NCBI GenBank assembly: GCA_041305385.1
Contig: JBFYLO010000030.1
Location: 794-64,793, forward strand
Source: Candidatus Micrarchaeota archaeon
Lineage (GTDB): Archaea > Micrarchaeota > Micrarchaeia > Burarchaeales > JAKAKT01
Length of the DNA stretch: 64,000 bases
Direction: 5' to 3'
In this document: in pieces, positions 17,453 through 60,143 of the stretch
Layout: each line of letters opens with the position of its first letter
Position numbering within the stretch: the stretch's first letter is position 1
Program-made: the position numbers and the translations under genes
Notes under the pieces: model-generated
What the model was told of the DNA's origin: nothing
The model's input: the letters and a program-made list of their open reading frames with translations, nothing else
The model's database searches: none

Positions 17453-17468
17453 AGACGAGGTGGTCTTA

Positions 17469-17997: not shown

Positions 17998-18010
17998 CCT
18001 TAATTCTTAG

Positions 18011-42683: not shown

Positions 42684-42693
42684 CTTTGCCCCA

Positions 42694-46939: not shown

Positions 46940-46961
46940 CGTATCATCCTTTCCTAAGCAC

Positions 46962-47528
46962 CTATGGCGGCTCAATCCTTCCCCTGCACATCCCGGTTTC
47001 GGTGTGTATTACATCGGAGCGCGGGGAGGTGTAGTTTATGGCGAGCTTGGTTGTGAAGACCAGGTTCATGTCCCCTGGTATCTCCATGGTCCCGTTAACT
47101 ATGAACCGCTGTCCCGCAGTCATGTTAAAGGGAAACGCAGTGGCGTTGACTGTGCATGTGCCTGACCCCACCGGGCACTGCCAGACGTATAACTGCGGGC
47201 TGTCACCAAATCCGATGGGCACGTCGTTCCCGTCCTGGTCCTTAAGCGTGATGCCCGAAACAGTTATGTTGGTGCCCCTGTTGTTTATCATCTGGAATAT
47301 GATGACTGAGCGGGTTTCCGGGGAATCAGGATGGGGGGTTACCTTGAAGTCTGGTATTCCAAAGCTGGAGAACATCCAGCACTCATTGGAAACGTTGAAA
47401 AAATTCGCGTCGAAAACCTTCAGGCTCATCAGCAAAAGGACTATTATGCCGACTATGAGCATCGCCCAGCCGTAGGTCATGAGGTACTCCATTCCCGTCT
47501 GCGCCTTGCCGGCTTTCCAAATTTTCAT
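46962..47528 (-). CDS. pilin with a class III signal peptide (MEYLMTYGWA type)
   Basis: MKIWKAGKAQTGMEYLMTYGWAMLIVGIIVLLLM. Confidence 0.6.
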   Translation of the reverse strand: MKIWKAGKAQTGMEYLMTYGWAMLIVGIIVLLLMSLKVFDANFFNVSNECWMFSSFGIPDFKVTPHPDSPETRSVIIFQMINNRGTNITVSGITLKDQDGNDVPIGFGDSPQLYVWQCPVGSGTCTVNATAFPFNMTAGQRFIVNGTMEIPGDMNLVFTTKLAINYTSPRSDVIHTETGMCRGRIEPP

Positions 47529-47538
47529 ATCAATCCGC

Positions 47539-48570
47539 TCACGGACATGGTTGAGTTATTTTGTAAATGGCAGCGTGGTCATTATCCATCTTGAACCAGT
47601 TGTTGGGGTTGCTCGTTATGATGGTCACGCCGGTGCCAGGGTCCACGGGAGTGCCTTCGTAGGTGATTCCAGTAACGTTGCACCCCTGGAAGAATGTCGA
47701 GTTGAAATACAGGTGGTCGACCATGGTCGAATTCGGCCTCACTGGCATGCCCTTGGGCGCGCTTTGGACAAGCTCATAGAAGTTAACGAAGCTCTCGATG
47801 CCCATGTTCGGGTATTTGTTGGTGCAGTTGTGGGGAACGTCCTTGGTGCTGAGGCATCCCTGAAGCCGCTCCATGAACGATGGGGCCTCGCTGCTGTTCG
47901 TGTACCAGCTTTCGTTTATCATGTAGGAAAGCGAGGTCGTGTCGTTGATGGTCATGTTCGCCTTCTTTATCTTCCTCTCAATCGACCCAAGCGTGTTCAG
48001 GGGGTAAATCGGGTCGGTGAAGCCTTCGATGGGAACGAGGGTCGTCGCATTGTAGATGCGGAAGAGCTTCATGTTCCCGCCCCTGTCGGTGATGTTCGCC
48101 TGGAGCTCTATGGAGAAGTTCAGGGTGAACGGGTCTGAGTGGTTTATCTTTAGGTTCATCACCGAGATGTTCGCGATGAATCCGTGGTTTGCCCCTATCA
48201 GCTCAGTGGACCTAATCCAGTTGGCGAACGAGCTGTCCATCATTATCGGAGCCGAGGCTCCGTTCGAGTAATTATTCAGGAGTATCAGGTGCTTCAGCTC
48301 CCCATCGGAATCGTTGACTGTCCGGCCATAGGTGTCGGTGTAGTCGATGACGGCGACAATTGCCCTTTTTGAAGCAATGTCAAGAACGCGCGGGACATCA
48401 AGGGCTATGGAGTCCGCGTAGTTGGCGAGCTCTATGCCCTCAAATTTCACGGTCATCTGCTCGCCCTGGGTCTGCACCGCGCCCATGTAGCTGGTTATGT
48501 AAAGCACTATGGGCGCAAGAAGGGACAACACCATCAAAGAGTAAAAGATTCCTGCCGAGGCCATTCTCAA
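47539..48570 (-). CDS. pilin-like surface protein with a globular domain and dense N-glycosylation sequons
   Basis: N-terminal hydrophobic helix MASAGIFYSLMVLSLLAPIVLYI. At least 13 N-x-S/T sequons in 343 aa. Its stop overlaps the upstream gene's start. Confidence 0.5.
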   Translation of the reverse strand: MRMASAGIFYSLMVLSLLAPIVLYITSYMGAVQTQGEQMTVKFEGIELANYADSIALDVPRVLDIASKRAIVAVIDYTDTYGRTVNDSDGELKHLILLNNYSNGASAPIMMDSSFANWIRSTELIGANHGFIANISVMNLKINHSDPFTLNFSIELQANITDRGGNMKLFRIYNATTLVPIEGFTDPIYPLNTLGSIERKIKKANMTINDTTSLSYMINESWYTNSSEAPSFMERLQGCLSTKDVPHNCTNKYPNMGIESFVNFYELVQSAPKGMPVRPNSTMVDHLYFNSTFFQGCNVTGITYEGTPVDPGTGVTIITSNPNNWFKMDNDHAAIYKITQPCP

Positions 48571-51500
48571 TCACCGTGGATTACCCACGCCACTACGCCC
48601 ATCTCTATCGGTCCCCAGAGGTATGGAACCTCCGTAACTGATGATACCCTAATCAATATGTCGGGTGAAAGCTCGACGTCTATTGGGTTGCACTCCGACC
48701 CCGACCACTCGGTCCCATCACAGGTTAGCGGCCCTGGTCCCGAGTATCTGCTCGAATCAAAATTTATGTAGTCGAGAAGCCTTATAAATGCATCATCTAT
48801 GGAGTTATATTCCGGGTGCAGGCGAGGGTCGGAATAGCCCGGGCCAGTCATTTCAACGTGCGTCGGGTCGAAAGTTACTCCTTCTACCCCATAGCCAAGC
48901 AGGATGGTCTGGTTCCCATCCTGCACCCCGTCCCCGTTAAGGTCATAGTAGATTGTGACGTTTCGGCCGACTGCCAGGTCAAGAACGCTTGAGAACGGGA
49001 CCGATGCCTGGAACCTGGCCTTGTAGATGACCCTGTTCGCAGTCGGGCATTCCTTGCTGTTGTTATTCGCCGCTATTCCAGTCGTAACATTTATGTAGTT
49101 GGTTTCGTTGGACTTTAGGAGCCCGGACGGGAACCTGACGATGAACGGGTCCCCGAGTTTGGCGTATGGAGTTAGGTATGTGGAAAGGTTGAACACGTTT
49201 CTCCACTGATTTCCGGTGTTGCTTGACCGGACCGTGACGTTGTGGGTCCAGTAGTTGGAAGAGTAGGAGGTGACCCGCGCCTCGTAAGGCTCGAACCACT
49301 CCGGGATATAGAAGCTCCCGGAACAGTTCCCGAGAGGGTCGGTCTCCTGTATGATGGATATGTCCCTGTAGCCGAGCGGGGGCACGTCATACTCGAAATC
49401 GAACTCCAGGTAGGACTCGGGGTAGAGCGTCGTGCTGATGTTGCCCTCGAGGCTTATCTCCTGGGTCACGTTTGCGATTGTCCGTATCTTGTCGCCCAGC
49501 ATCATATAGATTAACTGGAGCTCGCTTGCGTTGCTGCTCACATAATATGTGCCGTTCCCCGCATCAGCAATTCCCTTGAGCGTGCAGTTGGCATTTGTGC
49601 AGTTCACAACTGGCCCGAAGCCCACGGCATCTACGGTGAGATTCAGGACAGTCTGGTTTGTGTAGTAGGAACTCCAGATTGCGTTGTTGACTGCAGCATA
49701 GCAAGAATCGATTCCCGTGTCCAGACAATTCCTGGGGCTCGTACCGTTGCAGCAGGCATATCCGATGGTCTCGGTTCCGTTCCAGACAGGAATCGACCAC
49801 CGCAGTATTCGCCCGTTATCGCCAGCGGCAAAACCCAAGGTGGAGTTCACCATATCGGATGTACGGAGCGCACTTGTGGTCGGACTGTACCTCTTGTCCC
49901 ACTCCCCGTTGTCCCATTCGCTTATGTTCCCATTGGCGCCCATCGCGTAGCCGAGAGTGCCGTTTACGAAAAGGCCGGAATAGTAATTTATCGCTGGGGC
50001 GGGTGCGCTGTCCAGGGACCAGGAGGTGCCATCGAATCTGATTATCCGTCCCGCATCTCCAAACGCGTAGGCCCTATAAGTCGAGTTATCCACGAAAGCC
50101 AGTGCCCTGAGCGTGTTTGCAGTTGGGGAGGCCATGGCAGTCCAAGTGGGATATGTCCATTGGTAAATGACACTCCCCCCGCTTGCTCCTGCGCCCACGA
50201 TGAAGCCCTCGTTCCTGCTCTCGTTGATTCTCACAGCATAAAGAGCGCCTGCGCCTGCTATTGGGTTGTATAGATATGACCAAGTGGCCCCGTTCCAGAC
50301 GAGAACCCGTCCGTTGTCTCCGACTGCGTATGCAAGAGTGCCGTTAACTACGAAAACGCTTCTGAGTGTGCTCCCGCATCCTCCTGGTTGAGTATCCGCA
50401 GCCCATGAGCCGGTCCATTTTCGTATGACGCAGCTGTCCCCGACTGCGAAGCCAAGTGTGCGGTTATAGAGGTGCACCGCCCGGAGAATGGTGGCTGGGT
50501 CACTCTGGAGAGACCATGATACGCCGTTCCAGGCCAGCACCCTTCCTCCCCCAGAGGGGTTTCTGCCTACTGCGAAGCCGAATGTGTCGTTCAGGATGTC
50601 CATGCCATAGATTGCGCTGGTGGTCGGGCTCGTTTCCCCGCTCCACCAGTAGCAGCTGCCAACCGGGGTGCACCGATATCCGGCTATCCCGTCGCTCATG
50701 ACGACTATGAACTTCTTCCTGTTGATGCTTGACTGCGCCTGCAGGATTTCGCGCGCCTTGTTTATGGCGCAGCAGATGCATGTGCCGCCATTAGCATCAT
50801 AGTCTTCTATAGTTTCGTTTAGATACAACGCATCGGTAGACAGCGAAGTGTTTGTCGCAGAAGTGCTAAATGAAACGAGAGCCACCCTGTTGCCTGTGGA
50901 GCCGTTCAGCACTATGCTTATGAACTGCTTGTCAAGGCATTTGGCAAGGGCGAGGCGCTGGGTGTTTCTCTGGGTATACATGCGAGAATCAGAGCAGTTG
51001 TTGCTCCATTCGCTTCCGTCTGTATCATCATCATAACCTATCCTCCAGTCCATGCTCCCGGAAACATCGGTGATGAGCACTATGTCCGCTATGCCGAGGC
51101 CCCCGCCAGTGAGGTTCGCGCCTGCAAGAAGCCTGAGCGGGACTGTGACCTGGCTCAGGTTCCCATAGTTGAGGACCGAAGAGAAGTTTATGTCCTGTAT
51201 GTAAATCTCTTGTATGGCGTCTGTGCCGCTGGCCTCATAAACAGTCTTGTTGGCAACCACCATGGTCGTGGTGTAGTTGTTTAGGAGGCGCAGGTAGGCG
51301 GTTATTTGCTTCAGTTCCCCTGGCACGTAGAAGGAATCATAGAGGTTCACTAGGCCATCGATGCCTGGGAAGTAGTAGCGCTCTGACCCAGTCACTATCT
51401 CGCCCAGCTGGGAGGTGTCGTAGACGACCTTTATGTATCCGCCGCCGATGTATTTCTTGGTCAGGTTTCCGCCAGTAAAGTTAATTGTGAAATTATTGAA

Positions 51501-52277
51501 GCCTCCCTTCGATATGTTTCCTATGCAATGGGAGTTTGTGATGTTCCAGGCGTCTGCGGAGAAGTTCCCGCCGCTTTTGTTGAATTGCCCGCAGTACTGC
51601 CCGTTTATGGACATGGTGAAGTTGTCGCCTGCATCAACCTCCATGTAAATCAGCGAGACGTTGGCATCCGAGGGAACTCCCCTGACGACTGCAGTGAGGT
51701 TCCCCTCTCCGATAAAACCGCCGAAGAAGAAATACTGCGCCGACTGCTTGCCGAGAATATTCGAAAGGAACGCCCTCGCGGTGAAGCCAACGTGGGGCTT
51801 GCTCTTCATGTAGCCGGAGACCATGCGCCTGCTCACTGTCACGATTCTGCTGTCGGGGTCCAAATGCGAAGTGTTGGAGAGCGTATCGTTGTGGACCGTG
51901 AACGCCCAGTGGACGCTTTCCGGAACCATGTGCGTCAGTATTGCATTGGTAAGGTTTCTGGCGGCTTCGGTGTCGTTCGACCTGTTGAGGGACCACAGGG
52001 CGCCATCCACCTCCAGGATTGTGTTGTTGAGGTCCTTGTCATTCACATAGCCCGCGTAGTAAAGGTCCCTGACCTGCTTCTCGCTCCAGATGTCAGAAAG
52101 CCTGAGCCTAGCCAGCATTCCAATCATGTCGCCGGCTTGCGAATAGATGGATTCCTGCATCAATTCGGAAGAGACTGACTCCAGGGAGACGAGGGTGAAG
52201 AGGTAGACTACGGACATCAGTATGAGAAGCGCGAAAATCGAGTCGATGGTAAAGAAAAATCCTCTCATTTTATCCAA
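48567..52277 (-). CDS. giant pilin-like adhesin (1236 aa): class III-like N-terminus, vWA domain, beta-propeller repeats
   Basis: N-terminus MDKMRGFFFTIDSIFALLILMSVVYLF. MIDAS motif DIVLITDVSGSMD, then LVSFSTSAT, then VVMSDGIAG. At least 7 repeats of about 48 aa, G..G.[IV]..W.G..W. Its C-terminal domain is shared with the next giant. Confidence 0.7.
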   Translation of the reverse strand: MDKMRGFFFTIDSIFALLILMSVVYLFTLVSLESVSSELMQESIYSQAGDMIGMLARLRLSDIWSEKQVRDLYYAGYVNDKDLNNTILEVDGALWSLNRSNDTEAARNLTNAILTHMVPESVHWAFTVHNDTLSNTSHLDPDSRIVTVSRRMVSGYMKSKPHVGFTARAFLSNILGKQSAQYFFFGGFIGEGNLTAVVRGVPSDANVSLIYMEVDAGDNFTMSINGQYCGQFNKSGGNFSADAWNITNSHCIGNISKGGFNNFTINFTGGNLTKKYIGGGYIKVVYDTSQLGEIVTGSERYYFPGIDGLVNLYDSFYVPGELKQITAYLRLLNNYTTTMVVANKTVYEASGTDAIQEIYIQDINFSSVLNYGNLSQVTVPLRLLAGANLTGGGLGIADIVLITDVSGSMDWRIGYDDDTDGSEWSNNCSDSRMYTQRNTQRLALAKCLDKQFISIVLNGSTGNRVALVSFSTSATNTSLSTDALYLNETIEDYDANGGTCICCAINKAREILQAQSSINRKKFIVVMSDGIAGYRCTPVGSCYWWSGETSPTTSAIYGMDILNDTFGFAVGRNPSGGGRVLAWNGVSWSLQSDPATILRAVHLYNRTLGFAVGDSCVIRKWTGSWAADTQPGGCGSTLRSVFVVNGTLAYAVGDNGRVLVWNGATWSYLYNPIAGAGALYAVRINESRNEGFIVGAGASGGSVIYQWTYPTWTAMASPTANTLRALAFVDNSTYRAYAFGDAGRIIRFDGTSWSLDSAPAPAINYYSGLFVNGTLGYAMGANGNISEWDNGEWDKRYSPTTSALRTSDMVNSTLGFAAGDNGRILRWSIPVWNGTETIGYACCNGTSPRNCLDTGIDSCYAAVNNAIWSSYYTNQTVLNLTVDAVGFGPVVNCTNANCTLKGIADAGNGTYYVSSNASELQLIYMMLGDKIRTIANVTQEISLEGNISTTLYPESYLEFDFEYDVPPLGYRDISIIQETDPLGNCSGSFYIPEWFEPYEARVTSYSSNYWTHNVTVRSSNTGNQWRNVFNLSTYLTPYAKLGDPFIVRFPSGLLKSNETNYINVTTGIAANNNSKECPTANRVIYKARFQASVPFSSVLDLAVGRNVTIYYDLNGDGVQDGNQTILLGYGVEGVTFDPTHVEMTGPGYSDPRLHPEYNSIDDAFIRLLDYINFDSSRYSGPGPLTCDGTEWSGSECNPIDVELSPDILIRVSSVTEVPYLWGPIEMGVVAWVIHGD

Positions 52278-55200
52278 GTCACCACGCCCACATCAACTGG
52301 ACCGTACATATACGGGACTTCGTTTATAGCTACGCTCCGCATTATTATATCCTCCGTGATTTTCACATCTATCGGGTTGCACTGCGAGCCCGGGGCCTCG
52401 GGTGAACCGCTGCAGGAGTTGTCAGTTATGAAGTTGAGCTGCCCCATGAGTTCGAGAAGAGTGCTTGCCACTGCATTCGTTTCGCTCTCATGCTCTATGA
52501 AGGGCATCTCCACAATCGTCGGATCGAAGGGGACATCCTTGAGGTCCTTGCCCACGGGCAACGTCACGTTCCCGTCCGTGACCCCGTCGCCGTCCAGGTC
52601 GTAGTATACCCTTACGTTCCTTCCGGTTATTTCAGGCAGAACAGAAGAAAACGGGACAGAGCCGCGAATCAGCGCCTCGTATATGGCCCTGTTCCTGTTC
52701 GGACATGTCGCGCTGATTACGCCTGGCCGTTCGCCCGTGGAAACGTTGACTGTAATCACAGCCGGGGCATTGGAGGTTATCCCTGGATATTGGGCCCCTG
52801 GCCCGAGCGGGTCAGTCGGGTCGAACTCTATTACATACGGGTCGCCGAGGCTCGAGAAGCTGTTTCCGAAATATGAGAGGTTGAACACCGGCCAGTTGCC
52901 TGTCCCATTGTCAATGGTCACTCCACTCGTCCAGAGGTTTCCGGAGTAGGAGGTTACCTTAACATTCAGGGGAGTCAGCGCAGCAGGCACCTGGAATTGG
53001 CCAGAACAGCTCGGGAAGGCATCGGTCTCGACAGTCGTAATCAGGTCCCTGTATTCGAGCGGCTCGGACTTTGGAGTGTAGGTGAACTGCAGGTAGGAGT
53101 CTGGGTATAGGATTGTCTGGTTCGCTCCCCTTGTCTCGATGACCTGGTATCTGTAGCTGAGGTTGAGCAGCTGGGCTGCAATCGCCCTGTATGCATCCAT
53201 GAGCATGCTCGTGTCCCTCGCATCGAAGTATGTCCCGTTTGCGCATAGGGCGGTCCTGTTGAGCGTGTCAGCATCAACATCCGCCCCGAACCCCACGGTG
53301 TAGATGATGATTCCGTGGTTGTTGTAAGCGTTGCACGCAGCCTGCACCGTGTCCTCGATTGCGTCGCCAGTCATGCCTGGCCCCATCCCGGCGCATCCGC
53401 GGTTCGCCCTGCCGTCGCTCATCACCGCCATCGACCTAATCCTGCCTGGAGGGGATTGGGCAATGAACATGTTGGTTGCCCGGATTATCCCGCAGCAGAT
53501 GCACGTTTCGTACCACGTCTCGGAATCGTTCACGAAAGCGCTGAGCTCCGTTAAGTCGTTGGTAAAGTCATGCGCATCCACGATGCCATCCGGAAAGAGT
53601 GTCGTGTCTGGAGAGTTCGGGCACGGCGGGTCCTTGACCAGGAAGGATTTGGAAGAGGAGCCGGCTGCTGCGGTGAAAGTGATGTCGGATGACAAAAGGG
53701 TTTCCCATTTCATGGCCACTTGGGCGGATTTGCCTGGCTCGATTATCGGGATATCGACGGCACCTATTTTTTCCGATTCAGCATAGAACTCGACTGTTCC
53801 CCCGTCGCTTGCCCCTTCCCCGTAGTTCTCGAGTGTCGCAGTAAGCCTGAACTTGGAGAGAGAGCCGCAGGCTGCACGGGAGGGGGAAACTAGGAACTCG
53901 GAAATCCTCAGCATCGGCTTCTTTTGCGGCGGAGCCAGCAGAACCTGCTTGAGGTGCTCGATGAATGGCGCACCGTGCCCGGCGCCGCTTATGAATATGG
54001 TCGTCTGGTTTATGGCGAGGCAATCTGATGGGGGCGGGATGGAGTAATGGCACTGCCAGCTGTCCTCATCGTAAAATGCATCCTCGGGGCCAGTCGCGCC
54101 GCCCGCATAGCCCGGGTTTGACCATGCATAGATGTTGTAAAGCGTGTCGAAAGCGAGGGTCGTATACCAGTACGCGCTCACGTTGGCGGACTCCCCTGGC
54201 TGCAAGGCAGGCGTGTTGGTCTTGTTTATCCTGTCGCCTATGCCGTTGAAATTAGGCGCGAAGAAGTTCACATCGAAGTCGCGGGGGGCGGGGCAGTTTG
54301 CGTTCCTGTTTCGCACAGTCGCGTTGATTTGGACCAGCTCATCTGAAACCTTGGCAGCACTGATGTTCGTCACTGCGGTGCGGACCCAGCTGTTTTCGAA
54401 ATATGACCAGAAGTAGTTGTCAGTGGGGCCTCCGTATGCCTCGTGGTTCTCCCAGATGTAACCTTGCCCGGCAGGCGGCCGATGCAGACCAGAGAGGATT
54501 ATGCTGCCAGTGCTGTTCGGGATGAAATCAACAAATCCGTTTATGTGGAACCCATATTCCGGCTGCTCGGAGACGTGAACCCCGAGGAAAGGATTTATGC
54601 CGTCCCATACATAATGGAGGTTTGCCACCTGGCCCCTGTTGAGCCCGTTGAATGTCTGCTGGTAAAGGTTTAGCGAGTTGGTTCCGAAAGTCGTGGAGAA
54701 GCCGAAGCTTGAGTTGAAGGGCTGGTATATGTTGCAGGGACCATCGTTCGTTATGTTCATGTCAACAGTGTAATTGACCCCGACCCCGAGCACACGGCAG
54801 AATGACCCAATTTCCAGATACTCGGGCGGGTCGTAGTAGGGCGGGGCGCCAATATCCGGGACTACGTGCATTCTCGTTATGTTCAGGTTGGATACCTGCT
54901 CCTGGAATATGTAGGTTGCGTTGTTGTTGTCTTCGTTTTCCTCAACGATGACGTTCTCTGGGTCAGCCCAGCCAATCATGCGGAGGTCCTCCATGGTATT
55001 CAGGACAATGTTGAAATGCTCGTATGAGGTCGCGCCTTGGGCCAGCCCGTGGAGGGTGTGAGTACCCAGAAGCGTGACCGGAGCGGAACCCCCATAGGGA
55101 GTTGAGGAAAGGGTGACGTTGAAATCATCCGTTGTTGGACAGCCTCGGTTGGTAACGGTGACCATAAAATCGAGCGGGACGTTCTCACCGAAGCATATCC

Positions 55201-58015
55201 CGTGGTAATTATCGCCCTCAGCAGCGCGGCTCGGACTCCAGACATTCATGTGGTTTCCGCTGAACACGTTCATTCCTGGAACCACGAGGTCCGGGTATTC
55301 CATGACTTCGAGCATGAGCGTTGCCGTGTTATCGGCCTCGTCGCTTTCAGCCACCAGCCCGTTCGGGGCAGGGGGGTTGTCCACCCAGAGGGTGAATGTT
55401 GTGTTTTCGGTGAAATCGTCTGTAATGGTGTCTGCGAATAAGGGTGTGGAGTCGTAGTACCCCAAGAAAATCCCTTGGCTTTCGTTTATGTAGACGGCAT
55501 TGGTTATTATCTGAACCCCTTCCTGGTAGATTGTGAGGTCGAACGGGTCCACAACCGGGCAGGTGCCAATCCACGCCCTTGAGGTGAACTGAATCGAGTG
55601 GACGCCTGCGCAAAGGCCGTCTGGGACCATGGTGAATGTGTTCACTCTGATGTTCGGGCGATGCGGGAACAGGGTGTGTTCCGCCGTGTTATCAGTCTCA
55701 ATCGACTCTTCGATGAGGTTGAGATAATCTGCAGTTCCCCGGAAGCGGAGCGCCGTATCGTTATCCCACATGTCATAAGCGCCCACAATGCCCTCCATGA
55801 AATCCGCGCCTAGCACGATGTTATAGACCACTGTCCCGGATGCGCTGATGTTTATCCTCCGGAAATCGAGGGGCACATAGAGCCTCGTCCCGTTCGGGAA
55901 AGTTGTGTCTATCGACAGGTTCATGTCCACGTCCCTGACTTCGATTCCCCTTGTTTCCACGGCTCTTATCGTGATCGTGGTGTTCGAGGCGTTCTGGCAG
56001 AGTGTGCCCATAGAAGAAGCTGTGAAGTTGTAGCCATGCCGCGTCACCTTGTAGCTCGTTATATTTGATAGTTTTATGTTCGGTTTGCTGATTTTTATGC
56101 TCGCGTTCTTTTTTTGGTTGCATTCGTCGGTTTCGGATATGCTGTTCTCAGGGTCAGCATAGGCCGTGATATAGGTGTTTTTCGAAAGATTGGCAGTCCA
56201 GTTGATAGAGACACTGGCCCATTGGGATGCATCTAATCCGGGCACCTCGACGGTGCCTATAGTATTGGCAGGCGTGTTGTTGGCATCAATGGTGCATTGG
56301 TCGATGACCGAAGCATTGTAGAGCGTCAGGTTGAACGGGCCGGAGTTTGTCCCACCGATGTTCTGTATGTTTACGGTTATGGTGTAATTTCTCATTCTGC
56401 CGGGAATGCCGCTCCCAGGAGTTATGTTTATGCCCGGTATTTGAAATGTGGGGGCAGGGATCCAGAGATCGGATTGAAGGCCCCTTGCGCGGCCCAGGCC
56501 GCTGTATTCCACTATGCCGACCCTGTTGTTGGTGCTGTTGAGGACTATCCTGAGGAACTCGTTCGAGGCATTTATGGTGATGTTGATTCTATTCTGGTTC
56601 GGTGAAACGCAGTTGGCGAAAATCCTGTATCCGCAATAATCAACGCCTTCTTCTGTAAAAGAGCTGTTGGTTTGACTGCAGCTCTCGCCAGGTGAGCCGC
56701 ACGAGCAGTTGTCACCCAGGAGACATGTGCCTTTTGTGGGAATGTCGCAGCAGCCCTCCGTCTGGTCCGAGCACCACTGCATGCTGCCGGAAACGTCTGT
56801 CACGAGCATGATGTCGCCGGGTGAAGAGTCCACTTGCAGCGTGGCGGCCGGGGTGCCGAGACGAATCGGGACAGTCTTCGAGCTTATTTCAGAGTATATG
56901 AGGGACGAGAAGTTGTCATCCGTCAGGCTCAGCGTCTGTGTGAGGGGAGAGCCGGTTAGGTTGACAGGGGTGCGATTCCCTATGTAGAGCAGCATGTCAT
57001 AGTCGCTCCTCAGGTGCAGCCTCCCGCTTATGCTCGTGATGCTGCCGGGAACGAAGAACGAATCGTAGAGGTTCACGAAACCCTGAATCCCGGGGAAGTT
57101 GTAGAAGCGGGTGGTCATCGACGGCGATGAGAAGCTCGAGCTCGCGTATTTTATGTGGATGTATCCCCCGCCGATGTAATCGTCGGTGAGCGGGGGGTCA
57201 AATACGAAATCGAGTCTGGTCGGCGTTCCCCGTAAGACCTGGCTTAGGCATGCTGGGTCGGTGATTGACCAGTTGCTCACTGCATAGGGGCCTGCTTGCC
57301 TTTCGAAGTGGCCGCAAGATGTCCCGCCAACGTAGAGCGTGAAGTTCCCGCCGAGTGCCATCTCCATATAAATCTCGTTTACTGTTGCATCTGCGGGGAT
57401 GTTCCTTGAGTACACGGTTATGTTGCCCTGCCCCACGAAACCTCCAAAGAAAACATAATCCACATCATTCCTGAATGTGTTGGAGAGGAACGCGCGCGTG
57501 GTGAATCCGTATGTCCGGTTCCCCTTCATGTAGCCTGAGAGGAGCCTCCGGCTCACTGCGCTCATCGGCCTTCCGGACCTCATCTCGCTCGTGTTGTAGG
57601 CAGTCTCTATGGTTTCCCCCGTGTTTATCTGAATCGCCCAGTCTAAATTAGGGGGAACTGTTCCGGAGAAAATGGAAGCCACGAGCTTTCTCGCAACAGC
57701 GACATTGGCCTGGGTCGTGTTCTCCGCCCAGAGGGCGCCGACCACATCGAGCACGGTTTTGTTGATGTCCTCGGGACCGACTGCATTCGTGGCTATGACT
57801 TCCTTGACTACCGGCTCATGCCGGATGTCCCAAAGCCTGAGCTTGGACATGACGTCGATTGTATCCTCGGCGTGGACGTGCAGGTCCTCGTGCATCACCT
57901 CGGCTGAGACCGTCTCGATTGAAAGAAGGGCGAAGACCCCGAATATGGTTGCCAGTATCATGAGGCCGAAAACCGAATCCATTGTGAAAAAAACCCCTCG
58001 CTTCATCATTTCCAT
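52265..58015 (-). CDS. giant pilin-like adhesin (1916 aa): class III-like N-terminus, split vWA domain with a roughly 1000-aa repeat insertion
   Basis: N-terminus MEMMKRGVFFTMDSVFGLMILATIFGVF. MIDAS motif DIMLVTDVSGSMQW and a distal CICCGIIRA...AVMSDGRAN. Ig/CARDB-like repeat signatures. The N- and C-terminal domains are paralogous to the 48567..52277 product. Confidence 0.7.
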   Translation of the reverse strand: MEMMKRGVFFTMDSVFGLMILATIFGVFALLSIETVSAEVMHEDLHVHAEDTIDVMSKLRLWDIRHEPVVKEVIATNAVGPEDINKTVLDVVGALWAENTTQANVAVARKLVASIFSGTVPPNLDWAIQINTGETIETAYNTSEMRSGRPMSAVSRRLLSGYMKGNRTYGFTTRAFLSNTFRNDVDYVFFGGFVGQGNITVYSRNIPADATVNEIYMEMALGGNFTLYVGGTSCGHFERQAGPYAVSNWSITDPACLSQVLRGTPTRLDFVFDPPLTDDYIGGGYIHIKYASSSFSSPSMTTRFYNFPGIQGFVNLYDSFFVPGSITSISGRLHLRSDYDMLLYIGNRTPVNLTGSPLTQTLSLTDDNFSSLIYSEISSKTVPIRLGTPAATLQVDSSPGDIMLVTDVSGSMQWCSDQTEGCCDIPTKGTCLLGDNCSCGSPGESCSQTNSSFTEEGVDYCGYRIFANCVSPNQNRINITINASNEFLRIVLNSTNNRVGIVEYSGLGRARGLQSDLWIPAPTFQIPGINITPGSGIPGRMRNYTITVNIQNIGGTNSGPFNLTLYNASVIDQCTIDANNTPANTIGTVEVPGLDASQWASVSINWTANLSKNTYITAYADPENSISETDECNQKKNASIKISKPNIKLSNITSYKVTRHGYNFTASSMGTLCQNASNTTITIRAVETRGIEVRDVDMNLSIDTTFPNGTRLYVPLDFRRINISASGTVVYNIVLGADFMEGIVGAYDMWDNDTALRFRGTADYLNLIEESIETDNTAEHTLFPHRPNIRVNTFTMVPDGLCAGVHSIQFTSRAWIGTCPVVDPFDLTIYQEGVQIITNAVYINESQGIFLGYYDSTPLFADTITDDFTENTTFTLWVDNPPAPNGLVAESDEADNTATLMLEVMEYPDLVVPGMNVFSGNHMNVWSPSRAAEGDNYHGICFGENVPLDFMVTVTNRGCPTTDDFNVTLSSTPYGGSAPVTLLGTHTLHGLAQGATSYEHFNIVLNTMEDLRMIGWADPENVIVEENEDNNNATYIFQEQVSNLNITRMHVVPDIGAPPYYDPPEYLEIGSFCRVLGVGVNYTVDMNITNDGPCNIYQPFNSSFGFSTTFGTNSLNLYQQTFNGLNRGQVANLHYVWDGINPFLGVHVSEQPEYGFHINGFVDFIPNSTGSIILSGLHRPPAGQGYIWENHEAYGGPTDNYFWSYFENSWVRTAVTNISAAKVSDELVQINATVRNRNANCPAPRDFDVNFFAPNFNGIGDRINKTNTPALQPGESANVSAYWYTTLAFDTLYNIYAWSNPGYAGGATGPEDAFYDEDSWQCHYSIPPPSDCLAINQTTIFISGAGHGAPFIEHLKQVLLAPPQKKPMLRISEFLVSPSRAACGSLSKFRLTATLENYGEGASDGGTVEFYAESEKIGAVDIPIIEPGKSAQVAMKWETLLSSDITFTAAAGSSSKSFLVKDPPCPNSPDTTLFPDGIVDAHDFTNDLTELSAFVNDSETWYETCICCGIIRATNMFIAQSPPGRIRSMAVMSDGRANRGCAGMGPGMTGDAIEDTVQAACNAYNNHGIIIYTVGFGADVDADTLNRTALCANGTYFDARDTSMLMDAYRAIAAQLLNLSYRYQVIETRGANQTILYPDSYLQFTYTPKSEPLEYRDLITTVETDAFPSCSGQFQVPAALTPLNVKVTSYSGNLWTSGVTIDNGTGNWPVFNLSYFGNSFSSLGDPYVIEFDPTDPLGPGAQYPGITSNAPAVITVNVSTGERPGVISATCPNRNRAIYEALIRGSVPFSSVLPEITGRNVRVYYDLDGDGVTDGNVTLPVGKDLKDVPFDPTIVEMPFIEHESETNAVASTLLELMGQLNFITDNSCSGSPEAPGSQCNPIDVKITEDIIMRSVAINEVPYMYGPVDVGVVTWIK

Positions 58016-59223
58016 ACCCTCAAGGTCATGCCTACGGGCTCCCTTTCTGGGCCCTCAAGAATCGCCGTCCTCCGGACAATCACAACCTGCGACTGGAAGG
58101 CGGGAGAAAGGCCGAACTTAAGCTGCTCACCTATTACTGCAACGGAGTCCTGAAGAGGGGCTCCGCCCTCGAGCGAGCCTTCCAAATCCTCTATGTAGTA
58201 TATTCTGCCGAATCCATAATTCCAACGGCATATCATGCAGCGTGAAGGTTCTCCTTCCTGGGAAACGATTGTTTTAATCTCCGCGTCTCCCGGGTCGGAA
58301 TAGAGGTACCACCTGCTCGAGCCGAAGCTGACGCCCCTTCCCAGAGAGTCTTTGGGGAGCATGTGCCAAGGGTCAGCGACTTCTCCATCCCCCCATCCGC
58401 CTGCCTGGTAGGCCCCGTGGACTGAAAAATTCTCATCGATTACGTTTGCGCCCTCAGCCCCCTGCCCGACCACTACCAGTATGCCGCCGTTCGAGAGAAA
58501 CTCCTGAAGCCCGGTTATGTTGAGGTAGTCGTTTGTGAGGCCTATCCCCGGGTCGCTCGGGTCAAGGTTCTCTATTATTATAGTGCGGTAGGAGCTCTGG
58601 TTCATGACCAGGTACTGGTTGAAGAAATCAACCTGCTGGGCGAGGCCCAGTATGTTGTACCTGTGTCTAGGCGAGTAGGCCCCGAAGCTTCCCCCCGGAA
58701 TCTGGGCCTCGGCGTTGCCCCAATAAAGGTCCCATACGAGCCCGGAGCCCTCGATTTTTTCGAGAATTCTCGCCCTGTTCCGGTCCCTCGCATAGTAAGC
58801 AATCGGACTCCTGACCACCCCGCTCGTGAGGTTGTAGCCGTCAGAATCCACGAAAACAACATCAAAATCGTAGGCCGTGCCGTCGGATTGAAGCATTGAG
58901 AGCCCGCCAAGCCTGAGCCTGCTCTTTACATCATCGTAACCCATGCCCATAATGGCAGTTATCTTGTTCAGGGAAAGAACCCGCTCTTCAGTCGCGAGGC
59001 CGATGCTCTTTACGTTGGTGGAGTTCCAGTCAATGGGGTTGCCCGGATTTCTCACCAGAAGGTCGGAAACTGAGAGTGAGAGTGTCTGAAGCTCCCTTCT
59101 GCTCTCGACATCCCTGACCTGGGCGTCGATGCTGCTCCAGACTGTCACAAGAGTCAGGAGGATGGACACGAAAATCGCTAAGCTCAGGACGAAGTCGATA
59201 GTAAGCAGCTGCGCCTTCCTCAA
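58006..59223 (-). CDS. pilin-like protein with a large C-terminal domain (405 aa)
   Basis: MRKAQLLTIDFVLSLAIFVSILLTLV. Its stop overlaps the start of the 1916-aa gene. Confidence 0.5.
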   Translation of the reverse strand: MRKAQLLTIDFVLSLAIFVSILLTLVTVWSSIDAQVRDVESRRELQTLSLSVSDLLVRNPGNPIDWNSTNVKSIGLATEERVLSLNKITAIMGMGYDDVKSRLRLGGLSMLQSDGTAYDFDVVFVDSDGYNLTSGVVRSPIAYYARDRNRARILEKIEGSGLVWDLYWGNAEAQIPGGSFGAYSPRHRYNILGLAQQVDFFNQYLVMNQSSYRTIIIENLDPSDPGIGLTNDYLNITGLQEFLSNGGILVVVGQGAEGANVIDENFSVHGAYQAGGWGDGEVADPWHMLPKDSLGRGVSFGSSRWYLYSDPGDAEIKTIVSQEGEPSRCMICRWNYGFGRIYYIEDLEGSLEGGAPLQDSVAVIGEQLKFGLSPAFQSQVVIVRRTAILEGPEREPVGMTLRVWK

Positions 59224-59227: not shown

Positions 59228-59644
59228 TCAGCCCGGGGATATTACAACCTCTCCGTTCTGGTTTGAAATCAGATTGTAACCTACTCTCGGGTTCCCGGTG
59301 ACGTTTGATGTTATTATCGGCATTATGTAATAGCCACCGGTCCAGGAAATCTCGACAAACTGGTGCGTTGTGTTCACTGAAAGGGAGTAGCCCGTGTGGC
59401 TTGCCAGATATTCCGGGATGGAGAACCTGTGGGAATACCCCCTGCCGACTATCACTGCAGTGTTGATCTCGGTGGAGACGACCTCCGCAATCCGCTTCCC
59501 GTCCATCTCGGTCCGCTGGGCGTATATCATCTCATCCCTGTCCCTCTCGATGACCATGACAACAAGGAATATGATTATCAATGCTGATATCAGGGCAAAC
59601 AGTTCTATGGCAGCCTGGCCTTTTCTTCCTTTCAAAACCCCCAC
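59228..59644 (-). CDS. pilin-like protein with a class III signal peptide
   Basis: MGVLKGRKGQAAIELFALISALIIIFLVVMVI. Confidence 0.55.
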   Translation of the reverse strand: MGVLKGRKGQAAIELFALISALIIIFLVVMVIERDRDEMIYAQRTEMDGKRIAEVVSTEINTAVIVGRGYSHRFSIPEYLASHTGYSLSVNTTHQFVEISWTGGYYIMPIITSNVTGNPRVGYNLISNQNGEVVISPG

Positions 59645-59675: not shown

Positions 59676-60143
59676 CTAGCCGCAGTATCCCCCTTCCCCA
59701 TCTGTTACGTTTATCCAGTTGGAGGAACCTATCTGCACGGCTTCCACTGAAATCCTGTGGGTGCCGGGCGTCTGATGCCTGAGGCACCCGGTGACGTTGC
59801 CGAGCGTTTCCTCATAAACATCGGTGACCCCGTCGTAAGTATAGACGCTTATGGAAATCTCGTGGCCGCTCACGTTGGAGCTTGCAACGTTGTCCGGCAT
59901 GGTAACGTATATGGAGAACTTCGCAGGCGGGCCCTGCACATAGACCGCGTCGGCAGCCTCGGCGATTTTCGTGACAGCGTGCTTCGCATAGGCGACCCGC
60001 AGGTCAGCAGTTGTGCTGCTTATGGTGAATGTTGTCTGGGCCCAGAGCACCAGCAGGATGATGAGCATGAAGCCGACTATTATGACGTATTCTGTTGTTA
60101 TCTGGCCTCGCTTGCTCGCCATGAAAATCATTGGAATCGCCAC
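59676..60143 (-). CDS. pilin-like protein with a class III signal peptide
   Basis: ...MASKRGQITTEYVIIVGFMLIILLVLW (the start is probably the internal Met at 60122). Confidence 0.55.
   Translation of the reverse strand: MAIPMIFMASKRGQITTEYVIIVGFMLIILLVLWAQTTFTISSTTADLRVAYAKHAVTKIAEAADAVYVQGPPAKFSIYVTMPDNVASSNVSGHEISISVYTYDGVTDVYEETLGNVTGCLRHQTPGTHRISVEAVQIGSSNWINVTDGEGGYCG

What the first reader, a model, noticed from the sequence alone, without database searches (positions are those of the whole stretch)
48567..58015. Tandem paralogous giant proteins built from a shared N-terminal domain, a vWA/MIDAS domain, variable repeat cores and a shared C-terminal domain
The first 420 aa or so of the two proteins align, including YIGGGYI, FPGI.G.VNLYDSF.VPG and the MIDAS start D-I-[VM]-L-[IV]-TDVSGSM. 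The last 150 aa or so also align (VPFSSVL...R.NV..YYDL.GDG..DGN.T...CNPIDV...EVPY..GP...GVV.WI). In the 1236-aa protein the vWA (DxSGS ... T ... SDG) is compact and is followed by a 7-blade or larger array of G..G.[IV]..W.G..W repeats that looks like a beta-propeller. In the 1916-aa protein the vWA appears split: DVSGSM lies near residue 410 and CICC...AVMSDG near residue 1560. The roughly 1000 aa between them hold beta-sandwich-like repeats (ITVNIQNIGGTNSGPFNLTLYNASV, VTNRGCPTTDDFNVTLSS, ATVRNRNANCPAPRDFDVNFFA) that resemble CARDB/Ig-like modules. Both proteins are saturated with N-x-S/T sequons. The pattern looks like domain shuffling of adhesive modules on a conserved pilin-compatible scaffold.
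Basis: partly seen in the sequence, partly recalled or inferred. Interest (0 to 1): 0.8.

Follow-up and report, generated by a model that had tools for sequence, protein, structure and literature searches.

The report
Giant modular vWA pilus adhesins, DPANN
Two neighbouring giant genes in a tiny symbiotic-type (DPANN) archaeon encode pilin-like surface proteins whose metal-dependent adhesion domain is split open by different binding modules, and they probably sit on a type IV pilus as interchangeable attachment heads.

Summary
P1 (48567-52277, minus strand) and P2 (52265-58015, minus strand) are true paralogs.

Both vWA domains are interrupted, not only P2's. In P1 a 7-bladed propeller is nested after the MIDAS "SDG" strand. 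In P2 about 970 aa of CARDB-like modules sit in the beta2-beta3 region.

All five MIDAS residues are at least 99% conserved in 115 homologs.

The genes belong to a translationally coupled cassette of proteins with class-III-signal-like N-termini. Next to it lie a type IV pilus ATPase and two single-domain platform genes, an Epd/Tad-like layout. This synteny holds in about 60 of 82 loci from Micrarchaeota, Aenigmatarchaeota, Woesearchaeota/Nanoarchaeota and Altiarchaeota.

The family has at least 505 clusters at 50% identity. It shows four insertion hot-spots inside the vWA, carrying propellers, CARDB, CUB, lectin and jelly-roll modules.

Best reading: these are pilus-borne, probably tip-located, modular adhesins. 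They are the archaeal counterparts of bacterial CpaL/TadG, PilB and PilY1. Function is inferred, and the family is uncharacterised. I rate it a new variant of a known kind.

The parts
48567..52277 (-). P1: 1236-aa ORF from TTG 52277. The likely start is ATG 52268, giving 1233 aa that begin MRG|FFFTIDS. It is the propeller-bearing vWA pilin-like protein.
   Evidence: ORF list. Translation. A 100% identical database protein of 1233 aa exists. ATGA overlap with the P2 stop codon. AF2 mean pLDDT 90.4.
52170..52277 (-). P1 residues 1-36: short positively charged leader ending in R-G, then a hydrophobic helix with a conserved Asp at +6. This resembles a class III signal peptide plus pilin alpha1-N.
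   Evidence: The motif is conserved in 175 of 197 family members. AF2 predicts a helix over residues 11-33 that continues over 37-57.
51927..52169 (-). P1 residues 37-117: continuation of the long N-terminal helix, then a small helical bundle.
   Evidence: AF2 DSSP assignments.
51108..51926 (-). P1 residues 118-390: all-beta N-domain with a galactose-binding-like / CBM-like jelly-roll fold. It contains the YIGGGY and FPGI.G.VNLYDSFYVPG motifs.
50655..51107 (-). P1 residues 391-541: N-terminal two thirds of the vWA (beta1 to beta4). MIDAS residues are D404, S406, S408, T499 and D529.
   Evidence: Pfam VWA_2 over residues 400-530, 35 bits. MIDAS columns conserved in 114-115 of 115 sequences. DSSP order beta1-alpha1-beta2-beta3-alpha2-alpha3-beta4.
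49752..50654 (-). P1 residues 542-842: seven-bladed beta-propeller nested in the beta4-alpha4 loop of the vWA (insertion site 3).
49467..49751 (-). P1 residues 843-937: C-terminal third of the vWA (alpha4-beta5-alpha5-beta6-alpha6, including the VGFG strand).
   Evidence: Aligns with P2 1541-1625. The profile hits the C-terminal part of the 4rck vWA. DSSP.
48570..49466 (-). P1 residues 938-1236: family-specific all-beta C-terminal domain. It has a DxDGDGxxDG calcium-loop-like motif at 1112-1121 and the NPIDV motif.
   Evidence: phmmer finds 505 clusters (E<=1e-3), and the match is always at the C-terminus. No Pfam or PDB sequence hit. Loop conservation. The fold was not identified.
52265..58015 (-). 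P2: 1916-aa ORF from ATG 58015. The likely start is ATG 58009, giving 1914 aa that begin MMKRG|VFFTMDS. It is the CARDB-array-bearing vWA pilin-like protein.
   Evidence: P0127 is identical from residue 3 onward.
56822..58015 (-). P2 residues 1-398: leader plus hydrophobic helix, helical region and N-terminal beta domain, homologous to P1 residues 1-390.
   Evidence: BLASTP 36% identity, E 5e-90. HMM positions 1-460 match P2 3-507.
56495..56821 (-). P2 residues 399-507: vWA beta1-alpha1-beta2 with MIDAS D407, S409 and S411. The beta1-alpha1 loop carries a Cys-rich expansion of about 35 aa.
53579..56494 (-). P2 residues 508-1479: 972-aa insertion (site 1, beta2-beta3 region) made of about seven CARDB-like beta-sandwich modules.
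   Evidence: Pfam CARDB E 1.7e-34. Per-segment hits of 3e-15, 7e-10 and 9e-9, plus one weak hit. A module HMM finds 517-645, 786-903, 901-1041, 1042-1139, 1206-1347 and 1365-1487; segment 646-785 was not detected.
53141..53578 (-). P2 residues 1480-1625: the rest of the vWA (beta3/alpha2 to alpha6) with MIDAS T1504 and D1534. It is contiguous here, with no propeller.
   Evidence: HMM positions 464-526 and 564 onward. Pfam VWA over 1510-1605 is weak at 19.5 bits. BLASTP blocks.
52268..53140 (-). P2 residues 1626-1916: C-terminal family domain, homologous to P1 938-1236.
   Evidence: BLASTP 38% identity, E 8e-66.
58006..59223 (-). 405-aa pilin-like protein (RKA|QLLTIDF...) immediately upstream. 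Its stop codon overlaps the P2 start.
   Evidence: A homolog lies directly upstream on the same strand in 62-65 of 82 loci, at a median distance of 9 bp. The N-terminal motif is conserved in 56 of 64. ATGA junction.
59228..59644 (-). 138-aa small pilin-like protein (KG|QAAIELF...).
   Evidence: Q+1 and E+5 motif in homologs, and upstream synteny in 58-63 loci.
59676..60143 (-). 155-aa small pilin-like protein (KRG|QITTEYV...).
   Evidence: Weak Pfam Class_IIIsignal hit, E 0.0028. Q+1 and E+5 in 53 of 55 homologs, and synteny in 51-56 loci.
47539..48570 (-). 343-aa protein with a hydrophobic N-terminus, immediately downstream. Its start overlaps or abuts the P1 stop codon.
   Evidence: A homolog lies directly downstream in 60-65 of 82 loci. 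[KR]G-IFYS motif in 53 of 68. Junction sequence. 15 sequons against 4.8 expected.
46962..47528 (-). 188-aa pilin (KA|QTGMEYLMTYGW...), a candidate major pilin type.
   Evidence: The motif is present in 30 of 30 homologs. It has the same N-terminus as the tandem 168-aa genes at 17460-18517.
44609..46288 (-). Type IV pilus / FlaI-family assembly ATPase.
   Evidence: Pfam T2SSE E 1.7e-33. The NCBIfam FlaI model scores 307 bits, below its 550 cutoff.
42694..44595 (-). Two adjacent single-domain T2SSF (TadB/TadC-like) platform genes, at 43720-44595 and 42694-43719.
   Evidence: Pfam T2SSF E 3.7e-15 and 6.9e-11. Two single-domain platform genes are the hallmark of Epd-like and Tad systems (PMC6668835).

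Best explanation
P1 and P2 are paralogous, N-glycosylated, extracellular pilin-like modular adhesins of an Epd/Tad-like type IV pilus in a DPANN (Micrarchaeota-like) archaeon.

Proposed mechanism, with shown and inferred steps marked:
1. The short basic leader ending in [KR]G is removed by a class III signal (prepilin) peptidase. This is inferred.
2. The exposed hydrophobic helix, with its conserved Asp at +6, docks into the helical core of the filament. The four other pilin-like proteins of the same translationally coupled cassette (155, 138, 405 and 343 aa) join it there. [quoted passage not shown] This is inferred by analogy with PilB, CpaL and the minor-pilin/PilY1 complex.
3. The head is a vWA domain with an intact MIDAS. 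This is shown: all five residues are essentially invariant. It would bind a ligand carboxylate through Mg2+ or Mn2+.
4. Extra binding modules are nested into loops of the vWA: a 7-bladed propeller in P1 and about seven CARDB beta-sandwiches in P2. Their presence, positions and faster divergence are shown. Their role is inferred: they add or tune specificity, probably for glycans or surface proteins of a host cell or substrate.
5. Tandem duplication followed by insertion of different modules gives one pilus machine two alternative heads.
For: **Homology and architecture**
- Colinear paralogy between P1 and P2.
- The family HMM shows both vWA domains interrupted, at different positions.
- AF2 of P1 has mean pLDDT 90.4, the full canonical vWA strand and helix order, and the propeller nested after beta4.
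- Propeller fold. CARDB.
- MIDAS: D404 in 114 of 115 sequences, S406 and S408 in 115 of 115, T499 in 114 of 115, D529 in 115 of 115.
- The closest solved vWA domains belong to fimbrial or pilus tip adhesins: Mfa5 at 1e-11, S. sanguinis PilB at 7e-7, and the GBS and RrgA adhesins.

**Extracellular location**
- Sequons are enriched 2.4- to 3.3-fold, beyond all 1000 shuffles, while cytoplasmic ORFs are not enriched.
- The proteins carry conserved cysteines.

**Pilus link**
- The N-terminal motif [KR][GA]-phi-phi-F-[ST]-phi-D-A plus a hydrophobic stretch occurs in 175 of 197 members.
- The neighbours have Q+1/E+5 or Q+1/D+6 pilin-type N-termini.
- ATGA start/stop overlaps couple the 405-aa gene, P2 and P1; the 343-aa gene starts at a TTGA overlap or an ATG 5 nt after the P1 stop.
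- The 405-aa and 343-aa partners flank the vWA gene in 60-65 of 82 loci. The ATPase and platform genes lie within a few kb in 44-47 loci (examples).
- The locus has an ATPase plus two single-domain T2SSF genes, which is the Epd/Tad-like 'System 1' layout (PMC6668835; preprint 10.64898/2026.04.22.720090).

**Module swapping**
- There are four insertion hot-spots, with inserts of 108-1667 aa.
- The inserts are lectin or CBM-like and adhesion-type modules.
- The inserts diverge faster than the scaffold.
- Tandem pairs with different inserts recur in Micrarchaeota, Altiarchaeota and Aenigmatarchaeota.

**Bacterial precedents**
- PilB is a vWA modular pilin placed at the tip (PMC8179133).
- CpaL/TadG is pilin-like, with a vWA split by a beta-rich domain (PMC11870444).
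Against: - No experiment exists for any member. Cleavage, incorporation into the pilus, tip location, metal binding and ligand are all inferred.
- Pfam Class_IIIsignal does not hit P1 or P2.
- No prepilin peptidase was found in the window.
- The fold of the C-terminal domain was not identified.
- Whether the split vWA of P2 refolds was not modelled directly.
- In some loci, such as L002, the cassette is not next to an ATPase.
- Insertion site 2 is expected to lie on the face opposite the MIDAS, so not every insert need cooperate with the metal site.
Confidence: 0.68

Rival explanations
1. They are membrane-anchored or S-layer-associated cell-surface adhesins that never enter a filament. The class-III-like N-terminus would serve only as an export signal and anchor, as in the Sulfolobus bindosome sugar-binding proteins. 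The adjacent ATPase and platform would only help surface assembly.
For: - The N-domain shows a CBM-like jelly roll and no recognisable pilin head.
- Pfam Class_IIIsignal does not hit P1 or P2.
- The very large size, up to 2640 aa, seems awkward for a filament subunit.
- The ATPase has a partial hit to the bindosome BasE model.
- Some loci lack an adjacent ATPase.
Against: - A buried acidic residue at +6 is conserved in 161 of 175 sequences (D or E). That is typical of filament-forming pilins, not of plain anchors.
- The genes are strictly coupled with four other pilin-like genes, and a candidate major pilin lies in the same operon.
- Bacterial precedents of similar size and logic are pilus-borne.
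Confidence: 0.2
2. They are primarily assembly-priming, anchoring or mechanosensing components of the pilus machine, as proposed for TadG (anchor) and for PilY1/CpaL (priming and surface sensing). They would not be ligand-specific adhesins.
For: - They sit in the minor-pilin-like cassette.
- Conserved cysteines surround the MIDAS motif (TCICC, C428, C447). This recalls the force-sensitive disulphide of the PilY1 vWA (PMC11870444).
- TadG has been hypothesised to anchor pili (PMC4858521).
Against: - Rapid turnover and exchange of lectin or CBM-like nested modules, together with tandem paralogs that carry different modules, are hard to explain for a purely mechanical or priming role.
- The two roles are not mutually exclusive.
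Confidence: 0.1
3. They are cytoplasmic vWA regulators of the ArnB type that control pilus expression.
For: vWA proteins linked to archaeal type IV pilus loci have been described as regulators (PMC4858521).
Against: - The proteins have an N-terminal signal and hydrophobic helix.
- Sequons are enriched threefold.
- They carry many cysteines and extracellular-type modules such as CARDB, CUB and lectins.
- No FHA or kinase partners are present.
Confidence: 0.01

Closest known systems
CpaL / TadG of bacterial Tad (type IVc) pili (Caulobacter CpaL, Aggregatibacter TadG)
   Same: - Both have a pilin-like N-terminal hydrophobic helix followed by a vWA domain with a complete MIDAS.
- In both, the vWA is split in sequence by a nested beta-rich domain.
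- Both are encoded with minor pilins next to an ATPase and two single-domain platform genes.
- CpaL is predicted to sit at the pilus tip (PMC11870444).
- Tad systems derive from archaeal Epd-like systems (PMC6668835).
   Different: - No TadE/TadG-type N-terminal Pfam hit was found here.
- The archaeal proteins carry an extra helical region plus jelly-roll N-domain and a family-specific C-domain of about 300 aa.
- The nested modules differ in kind, sit at four alternative loops, and reach 1667 aa.
- Homology beyond the generic vWA was not tested.
PilB of Streptococcus sanguinis (bimodular type IV pilin with vWA module; PDB 7b7p)
   Same: - Both graft a vWA with a canonical MIDAS onto a pilin N-terminus.
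- PilB binds ligands in a metal-dependent way and is modelled as tip-only (PMC8179133).
- The family profile hits 7b7p at E 7e-7.
   Different: - PilB is 426 aa, with a compact uninterrupted vWA and a canonical bacterial pilin module (the IPR012902 N-terminal pilin domain that PMC8179133 used to define modular pilins; it was not scanned for here).
- The survey of modular pilins in that paper covered bacteria only.
PilY1/PilC tip adhesins with the FimU-PilVWX minor pilin set (T4aP)
   Same: - Both are large adhesins encoded within a minor-pilin operon.
- P. aeruginosa PilY1 also combines a vWA domain with a beta-propeller.
- N-terminal modules are swapped on a conserved carrier.
- PilY1 is proposed to take part in the priming and tip complex (PMC8179133; PMC11870444).
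   Different: - PilY1 is not a pilin, and its propeller is a C-terminal carrier domain (IPR008707).
- Here the propeller is YCF48/WD40-like, nested inside the vWA, and optional. No PilC-type Pfam hit was found.
Sortase-pilus and type V fimbrial tip adhesins with vWA (RrgA, GBS104/PilA, Mfa5)
   Same: - They give the best sequence-profile matches in the PDB for the vWA part: Mfa5 at 1e-11, 3tvy at 5e-5 and 2ww8 at 1e-3.
- They too are vWA-headed tip adhesins carried on beta-sandwich stalks.
   Different: They use unrelated assembly systems (sortase, or protease-mediated strand exchange). They have no pilin-type N-terminal helix, and they are bacterial.
Methanococcus Epd pilus cluster / archaeal TFF 'System 1'
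   Same: - Both have two platform genes plus an ATPase and many pilin-like genes.
[quoted passage not shown] 'System 1' is reported in DPANN (10.64898/2026.04.22.720090).
   Different: That survey mentions no vWA-containing pilin-like protein; the terms 'vWA' and 'von Willebrand' occur zero times. Direct homology to Epd proteins was not tested here.

Membership tests
von Willebrand factor A (vWA) domain superfamily | Significant match to a vWA profile | tested here: met
   P1 scores 35 bits on VWA_2 against a cutoff of 27. P2 alone falls below the cutoff (VWA 19.5 against 23.8), but it is colinear with the family HMM and with P1. The family profile hits the Mfa5, 4rck and PilB vWA chains in the PDB.
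von Willebrand factor A (vWA) domain superfamily | Complete MIDAS (DxSxS ... T ... D) | tested here: met
   P1 has D404, S406, S408, T499 and D529. P2 has D407, S409, S411, T1504 and D1534. These columns are conserved in 114-115 of 115 homologs. Metal binding itself was not tested.
von Willebrand factor A (vWA) domain superfamily | Rossmann-like topology beta1-alpha1-beta2-beta3-alpha2-alpha3-beta4-alpha4-beta5-alpha5-beta6-alpha6 | tested here: met
   The AF2 DSSP order in P1 matches this topology exactly, with the propeller between beta4 and alpha4. P2 was not modelled.
CARDB (PF07705) beta-sandwich repeats | Pfam match above the gathering score | tested here: met
   P2 scores 118.5 bits against 22.7, over 3 stretches. 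The segments score 3e-15, 7e-10 and 9e-9. An in-house module HMM finds about six modules.
YCF48 / PSII_BNR (PF14870) propeller family | Sequence-profile match above threshold | tested here: not met
Archaeal type IV pilins / class III signal peptide proteins | Short basic leader ending in [KR][GA], followed by a hydrophobic helix of about 20 aa | tested here: met
   P1 begins MRG|FFFTIDSIFALLILMSVVYLF and P2 begins MMKRG|VFFTMDSVFGLMILATIF. The pattern is present in 175 of 197 members.
Archaeal type IV pilins / class III signal peptide proteins | Match to Pfam Class_IIIsignal (PF04021) | tested here: not met
   P1 and P2 have no hit at E<=0.1. Only the neighbouring 155-aa protein gives a weak hit, E 0.0028.
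Archaeal type IV pilins / class III signal peptide proteins | Cleavage by a PibD/FlaK/EppA-type peptidase and incorporation into a filament | not testable with these tools
   No peptidase with a GxGDxK motif was found in the window. Testing this needs N-terminal sequencing or pilus proteomics.
Archaeal type IV pilins / class III signal peptide proteins | Pilin-type globular head packed on the alpha1 helix | tested here: inconclusive
TadG / CpaL | TadE/TadG-like N-terminal domain (Pfam Tad/TadE families) | tested here: not met
   No such Pfam hit in P1 or P2.
TadG / CpaL | Pilin-like helix plus a MIDAS vWA interrupted by a beta-rich domain, encoded with an Epd/Tad-type machine (ATPase plus two single-domain platform genes) | tested here: met
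   The comparison rests on the description of CpaL in PMC11870444 and of Epd/Tad systems in PMC6668835.
TadG / CpaL | Demonstrable sequence or profile homology to TadG outside the generic vWA core | not tested
PilY1 / PilC | C-terminal PilC/PilY1 beta-propeller (IPR008707 / PF05567) | tested here: not met
   No hit. The propeller here is internal, nested in the vWA, and absent from many family members.

The most novel reading that the evidence does not exclude
This family may be the main host- or substrate-recognition device of DPANN archaea. In this reading a pilus-tip 'socket', made of the pilin helix, jelly roll, MIDAS vWA and C-domain, has vWA loops that act as hot-spots where whole binding domains are swapped. 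Duplication then gives each episymbiont a small repertoire of heads that sets partner specificity. The family may also be the archaeal homolog, and possibly the ancestor, of bacterial TadG/CpaL. If so, a split-vWA tip pilin was already part of the Epd-like system that gave rise to Tad pili.
Probability: 0.3. Interest if true: 0.8.

Novelty: new variant of a known kind. Interest (0 to 1): 0.6.

Why it matters
How ultra-small DPANN archaea find and hold on to their hosts is largely unknown, and few of them can be cultivated. This family offers a concrete, widespread and testable candidate for that role.

- It is conserved across at least four DPANN-type lineages.
- It is wired into a type IV pilus operon.
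- It carries an invariant metal-dependent adhesion site.
- It has rapidly evolving, exchangeable binding modules.

The family also extends the 'modular pilin' principle from bacteria to archaea. It shows an unusual pattern in protein evolution: a single vWA domain tolerates whole-domain insertions of up to about 1,700 aa at four defined loops. Finally, the Epd/Tad-like machinery raises the question of whether the bacterial split-vWA tip protein TadG/CpaL has an archaeal origin.

Tried and rejected
- **afdb50** was not available.
- **Exact look-up of the window's own contig** failed: P0001 is not on record and P2 is not in the collection. The organism is therefore inferred only from the nearest homologs, which are Micrarchaeota MAGs at 58-62% identity.
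- **NCBIfam** has no model for either giant or for the neighbours.
- **405-aa neighbour as a paralog of the giants' N-domain.** BLASTP found no similarity, so this was rejected.
- **Diversity-generating retroelement (template/variable repeat pair).** The window's only direct repeats come from paralogous pilins, ATPases and a 40-nt P1/P2 stretch, so this was rejected.
- **Prepilin peptidase motif search in the window** found nothing.
- **tblastn of a short-form member against plasmids**, aimed at annotated TadG, gave only weak haloarchaeal and Firmicute vWA hits.
- **Literature searches** for a description of this family in DPANN or Micrarchaeota found none. The two archaeal type IV pilus surveys do not describe it.
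- **Cytoplasmic ArnB-like regulator reading** was rejected on topology and composition.
Full report
**1. The observation**

The two ORFs exist as described, in tandem on the minus strand: P1 at 48567-52277 (1236 aa) and P2 at 52265-58015 (1916 aa). BLASTP between them gives three colinear blocks:
- P1 1-482 with P2 1-516 (36% identity, E 5e-90)
- P1 479-540 with P2 1484-1545 (35%, E 9e-7)
- P1 843-1232 with P2 1541-1915 (38%, E 8e-66)

About 480-516 aa are shared at the N-terminus and about 390 aa at the C-terminus.

At the DNA level the two genes share only one 40-nt stretch at 78% identity. They are old paralogs, not a recent duplication or an assembly artefact.

The likely start codons are ATG 58009 (P2) and ATG 52268 (P1). 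Each forms an ATGA overlap with the stop codon of the gene upstream. The next gene downstream starts at or 5 nt after the P1 stop. The four genes 405-aa, P2, P1 and 343-aa are therefore translationally coupled.

**2. Domain anatomy**

Pfam finds VWA_2 in P1 (residues 400-530, 35 bits against a cutoff of 27). In P2 it finds CARDB (118.5 bits) and a weak VWA hit at 1510-1605.

I built an HMM from 42 insert-free family members (865-945 aa). It matches P1 residues 3-544 and 838-1231 at HMM positions 2-533 and 543-899. It matches P2 residues 3-507, 1480-1542 and 1552-1914 at HMM positions 1-460, 464-526 and 564-899. Both proteins are therefore the short form plus one large insertion, at different places.

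AlphaFold2 of P1 residues 37-1236, run with 115 aligned sequences, gave mean pLDDT 90.4 and pTM 0.60. In P1 numbering the model shows:
- a long N-terminal helix plus helical bundle, up to about residue 117
- an all-beta domain, about 123-386
- vWA elements beta1 397-404, alpha1 441-457, beta2 464-470, beta3 473-476, alpha2 483-491, alpha3 501-515 and beta4 521-528
- a seven-bladed propeller, about 556-828
- then alpha4 860-876, beta5 880-887, alpha5 894-906, beta6 911-914 and alpha6 917-935
- all-beta C-terminal domain(s), 949-1232

This is the complete canonical vWA topology with the propeller nested in the beta4-alpha4 loop, directly after the MIDAS Asp of "MSDG".

The PDB profile search agrees. 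vWA chains are hit both before the propeller and after it (4rck, second stretch at profile positions 812-868). The top hits are Mfa5 (1e-11), 4rck (3e-10), S. sanguinis PilB (7e-7), the GBS and RrgA adhesins, and BLIP-II and tectonin for the propeller.

In P2 the 972-aa insertion lies at HMM positions 460-464, which correspond to P1 473-477, the beta2-beta3 hairpin region. It consists of CARDB-like modules. Pfam detects four segments. A module HMM finds six modules (517-645, 786-903, 901-1041, 1042-1139, 1206-1347, 1365-1487). Segment 646-785 went undetected but ends in the same acidic motif. P2 also has a Cys-rich expansion of about 35 aa in the beta1-alpha1 MIDAS loop.

**3. Conservation and composition**

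The MIDAS residues are essentially invariant in 115 homologs: D404 in 114, S406 in 115, S408 in 115, T499 in 114 and D529 in 115. The P2 equivalents are D407, S409, S411, T1504 and D1534.

N-x-S/T sequons number 51 in P1, against 15.3±3.5 in shuffles (maximum 26 in 1000). They number 54 in P2, against 22.3±4.1 (maximum 34). The 343-aa and 188-aa neighbours are also enriched. The ATPases, PEPCK and a helicase-like ORF are not. This fits N-glycosylated extracellular proteins.

**4. Genomic context**

Downstream on the same strand lie:
- a 343-aa protein with a hydrophobic N-terminus
- a 188-aa pilin
- a 225-aa protein with an HTH and coiled coil
- a T2SSE ATPase (E 1.7e-33)
- two single-domain T2SSF platform genes

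Upstream lie a 405-aa protein and two small proteins with class-III-signal-like N-termini.

I examined 82 homologous loci drawn from GTDB species representatives and metagenomes.
- The homolog of the 405-aa gene lies immediately upstream in 62-65 loci, at a median gap of 9 bp.
- The homolog of the 343-aa gene lies immediately downstream in 60-65 loci.
- The small pilins lie upstream in 56-63 loci.
- The ATPase and platform genes lie within a few kb in 44-47 loci. Many contigs are truncated (examples).

The N-termini are conserved by class:
- small pilins and the 188-aa pilin: [KR][GA]|Q-x-x-x-E-[YF]
- the 405-aa protein: [KR]A|Q-phi-[FL]-[ST]-x-D-F
- the giants: [KR]G|phi-phi-F-[ST]-phi-D-A, in 175 of 197 members, with D or E at +6 in 161 of 175

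An ATPase with two single-domain platform genes is the hallmark of Epd-like archaeal pili and of the bacterial Tad pili derived from them (PMC6668835). A 2026 survey reports this 'System 1' layout in DPANN (10.64898/2026.04.22.720090).

**5. The family**

The word-indexed search gave 356 hits, annotated at most as "VWA domain-containing protein". They come from Micrarchaeota, Aenigmatarchaeota, Woesearchaeota, Pacearchaeota, Parvarchaeota and Altiarchaeales.

The scan of GTDB representatives confirmed at least 542 stretches. The best 80 are nearly all DPANN or Altiarchaeota MAGs.

phmmer with the C-domain alone found 505 clusters at 50% identity (339 at E<=1e-10). The match is always C-terminal, in proteins of about 870 to 2640 aa.

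Insertions cluster at four points of the vWA:
- **Beta1-alpha1 loop** (HMM ~402-414): 4 cases, 149-321 aa
- **Beta2-beta3 region** (HMM ~460-478): 7 distinct proteins, 596-1667 aa, including P2
- **Alpha3-beta4 loop** (HMM ~494-508): 32 cases, 108-840 aa
- **Beta4-alpha4 loop** (HMM ~525-557): about 65 cases, mostly ~280-aa propellers, including P1

One protein carries two inserts.

The inserts include CUB, BetaGal_ABD2, GH115_C, GH114-associated, PSII_BNR, Laminin_G_3 with DUF2341 and a reelin subrepeat, H-type lectin (weak) and CARDB.

Between orthologs the inserts diverge faster than the scaffold. For P2 against P0058, the N-part is 58.6% identical, the C-part 57.8% and the insert 37.8%. 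For P1 against its five closest orthologs, the N-part is 62-66%, the C-part 60-64%, the vWA N-part 59-69% and the propeller 47-51%.

Tandem pairs with different inserts recur in other Micrarchaeota (L003 has the same 1945 + 1215 pair; also L018 and L021), in Altiarchaeota (L065, L070) and in Aenigmatarchaeota (L077).

**6. Interpretation**

*Shown.* The paralogy, the conserved scaffold, the intact MIDAS vWA with nested modules, the extracellular-type composition, the pilin-like N-termini, and the tight conserved linkage to a type IV pilus machine and four other pilin-like genes.

*Inferred.* Removal of the leader by a prepilin peptidase, insertion of the hydrophobic helix into the filament core, location at the tip or priming complex, and MIDAS-plus-module-mediated binding to a host or substrate.

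The inference rests on bacterial precedents:
- S. sanguinis PilB is a vWA modular pilin, modelled as tip-only, that adheres in a metal-dependent way (PMC8179133).
- Caulobacter CpaL/TadG is pilin-like, its vWA is split by a beta-rich domain, and it is predicted to sit at the tip (PMC11870444).
- The minor-pilin/PilY1 complex is the third precedent.

Rival readings are a surface anchor that never enters a filament, and a mainly priming or mechanosensing role. Both are less well supported but not excluded. A cytoplasmic regulator role is excluded.

The mapping of insertion sites to faces of the vWA (sites 1, 3 and the beta1-alpha1 loop on the MIDAS face, site 2 on the opposite face) follows from the textbook vWA topology. 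It was not measured on coordinates.

**7. Novelty**

I found no description of this family. It is absent from the two archaeal type IV pilus surveys. PMC4858521 treats vWA proteins only as ArnB-like regulators, and the 2026 preprint never mentions vWA. The bacterial modular-pilin survey does not mention archaea. Five literature searches found nothing. NCBIfam has no model for it.

The principle is known from bacteria: a pilin carrier, a vWA adhesion head and swapped modules. I therefore rate this a new variant of a known kind. What is new:
- it is archaeal and DPANN-wide
- it has a distinctive scaffold
- it shows an unusually plastic, multiply insertable vWA domain

I give 0.6.

Noticed in passing
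window 2660-14032: A second type IV pilus-like locus. It has a T2SSE ATPase at 12293-14032 (E 6.6e-34, with a weak PilB3_C hit) and two T2SSF platform genes at 11420-12205 and 10453-11415. Pilin-like ORFs lie at 2660-3088, 4133-4537, 4538-5344 and 6377-6826. The ORF at 4133-4537 begins 'MKGFVFTFDALFA', the same N-terminal motif as the giant family. The two ATPase genes share an 89-nt stretch at 76% identity.
   Followed up: partly
window 17460-17966 and 18011-18517: Two tandem 168-aa paralogs begin 'KRGQAAMEYLMTYGWAILVIV' and share 83% identity over 145 nt. They have the same N-terminal type as the 188-aa pilin at 46962-47528, so they are probably the major pilins used by one or both machines. 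Pfam gives no hit.
   Followed up: partly
window 21504-26279 and 19625-21493: A 1591-aa ORF has no Pfam hit and no sequon enrichment (7 against 6.8 expected). It is preceded by a 622-aa Cys-rich protein with a lipoprotein-like N-terminus, a DUF5885 hit and sequon enrichment (12 against 4.3 expected).
   Followed up: no
window 56495-56821 (P2 residues ~412-475): The beta1-alpha1 MIDAS loop of P2 carries a Cys-rich expansion with about 11 Cys in 60 aa, which P1 lacks. In four other family members the same loop hosts whole-domain inserts of 149-321 aa.
   Followed up: partly
window 48909-48941 (P1 residues 1112-1122) and 52566-52598 (P2 residues 1806-1816): A DxDGDGxxDG motif, which looks like a calcium-binding loop, sits in the C-domain. 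It is present in about half of the family, and the other members have a deletion there. PilY1 has an EF-hand-like calcium site (from my own knowledge). The relevance here is untested.
   Followed up: partly
loci L052, L055, L057: Three family-bearing contigs are labelled Kaiserbacteria, Methanosarcinales and Coatesbacteria. They are short (3.5-12 kb) and their genes are 42-44% identical to the Micrarchaeota gene, so they are most likely mis-binned DPANN contigs.
   Followed up: no
locus L083 (Natribaculum luteum megaplasmid NZ_CP095398.1, 406983-412271): A 1762-aa haloarchaeal 'VWA domain-containing protein' gives a weak match to the family's vWA region (23% identity, E 2e-5). No pilus genes are annotated nearby.
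   Followed up: partly
window 42680-44332 (minus strand): The 550-aa Arg/His/Pro-rich ORF in the mechanical ORF list overlaps both T2SSF genes in another frame. It is almost certainly not a gene.
   Followed up: no
window 46298-46975: A 225-aa protein with a weak winged-helix hit and a long coiled coil lies between the pilin genes and the ATPase. A homolog is found near the cassette in 33 of 82 loci, so it may be a locus-specific regulator or assembly factor.
   Followed up: partly
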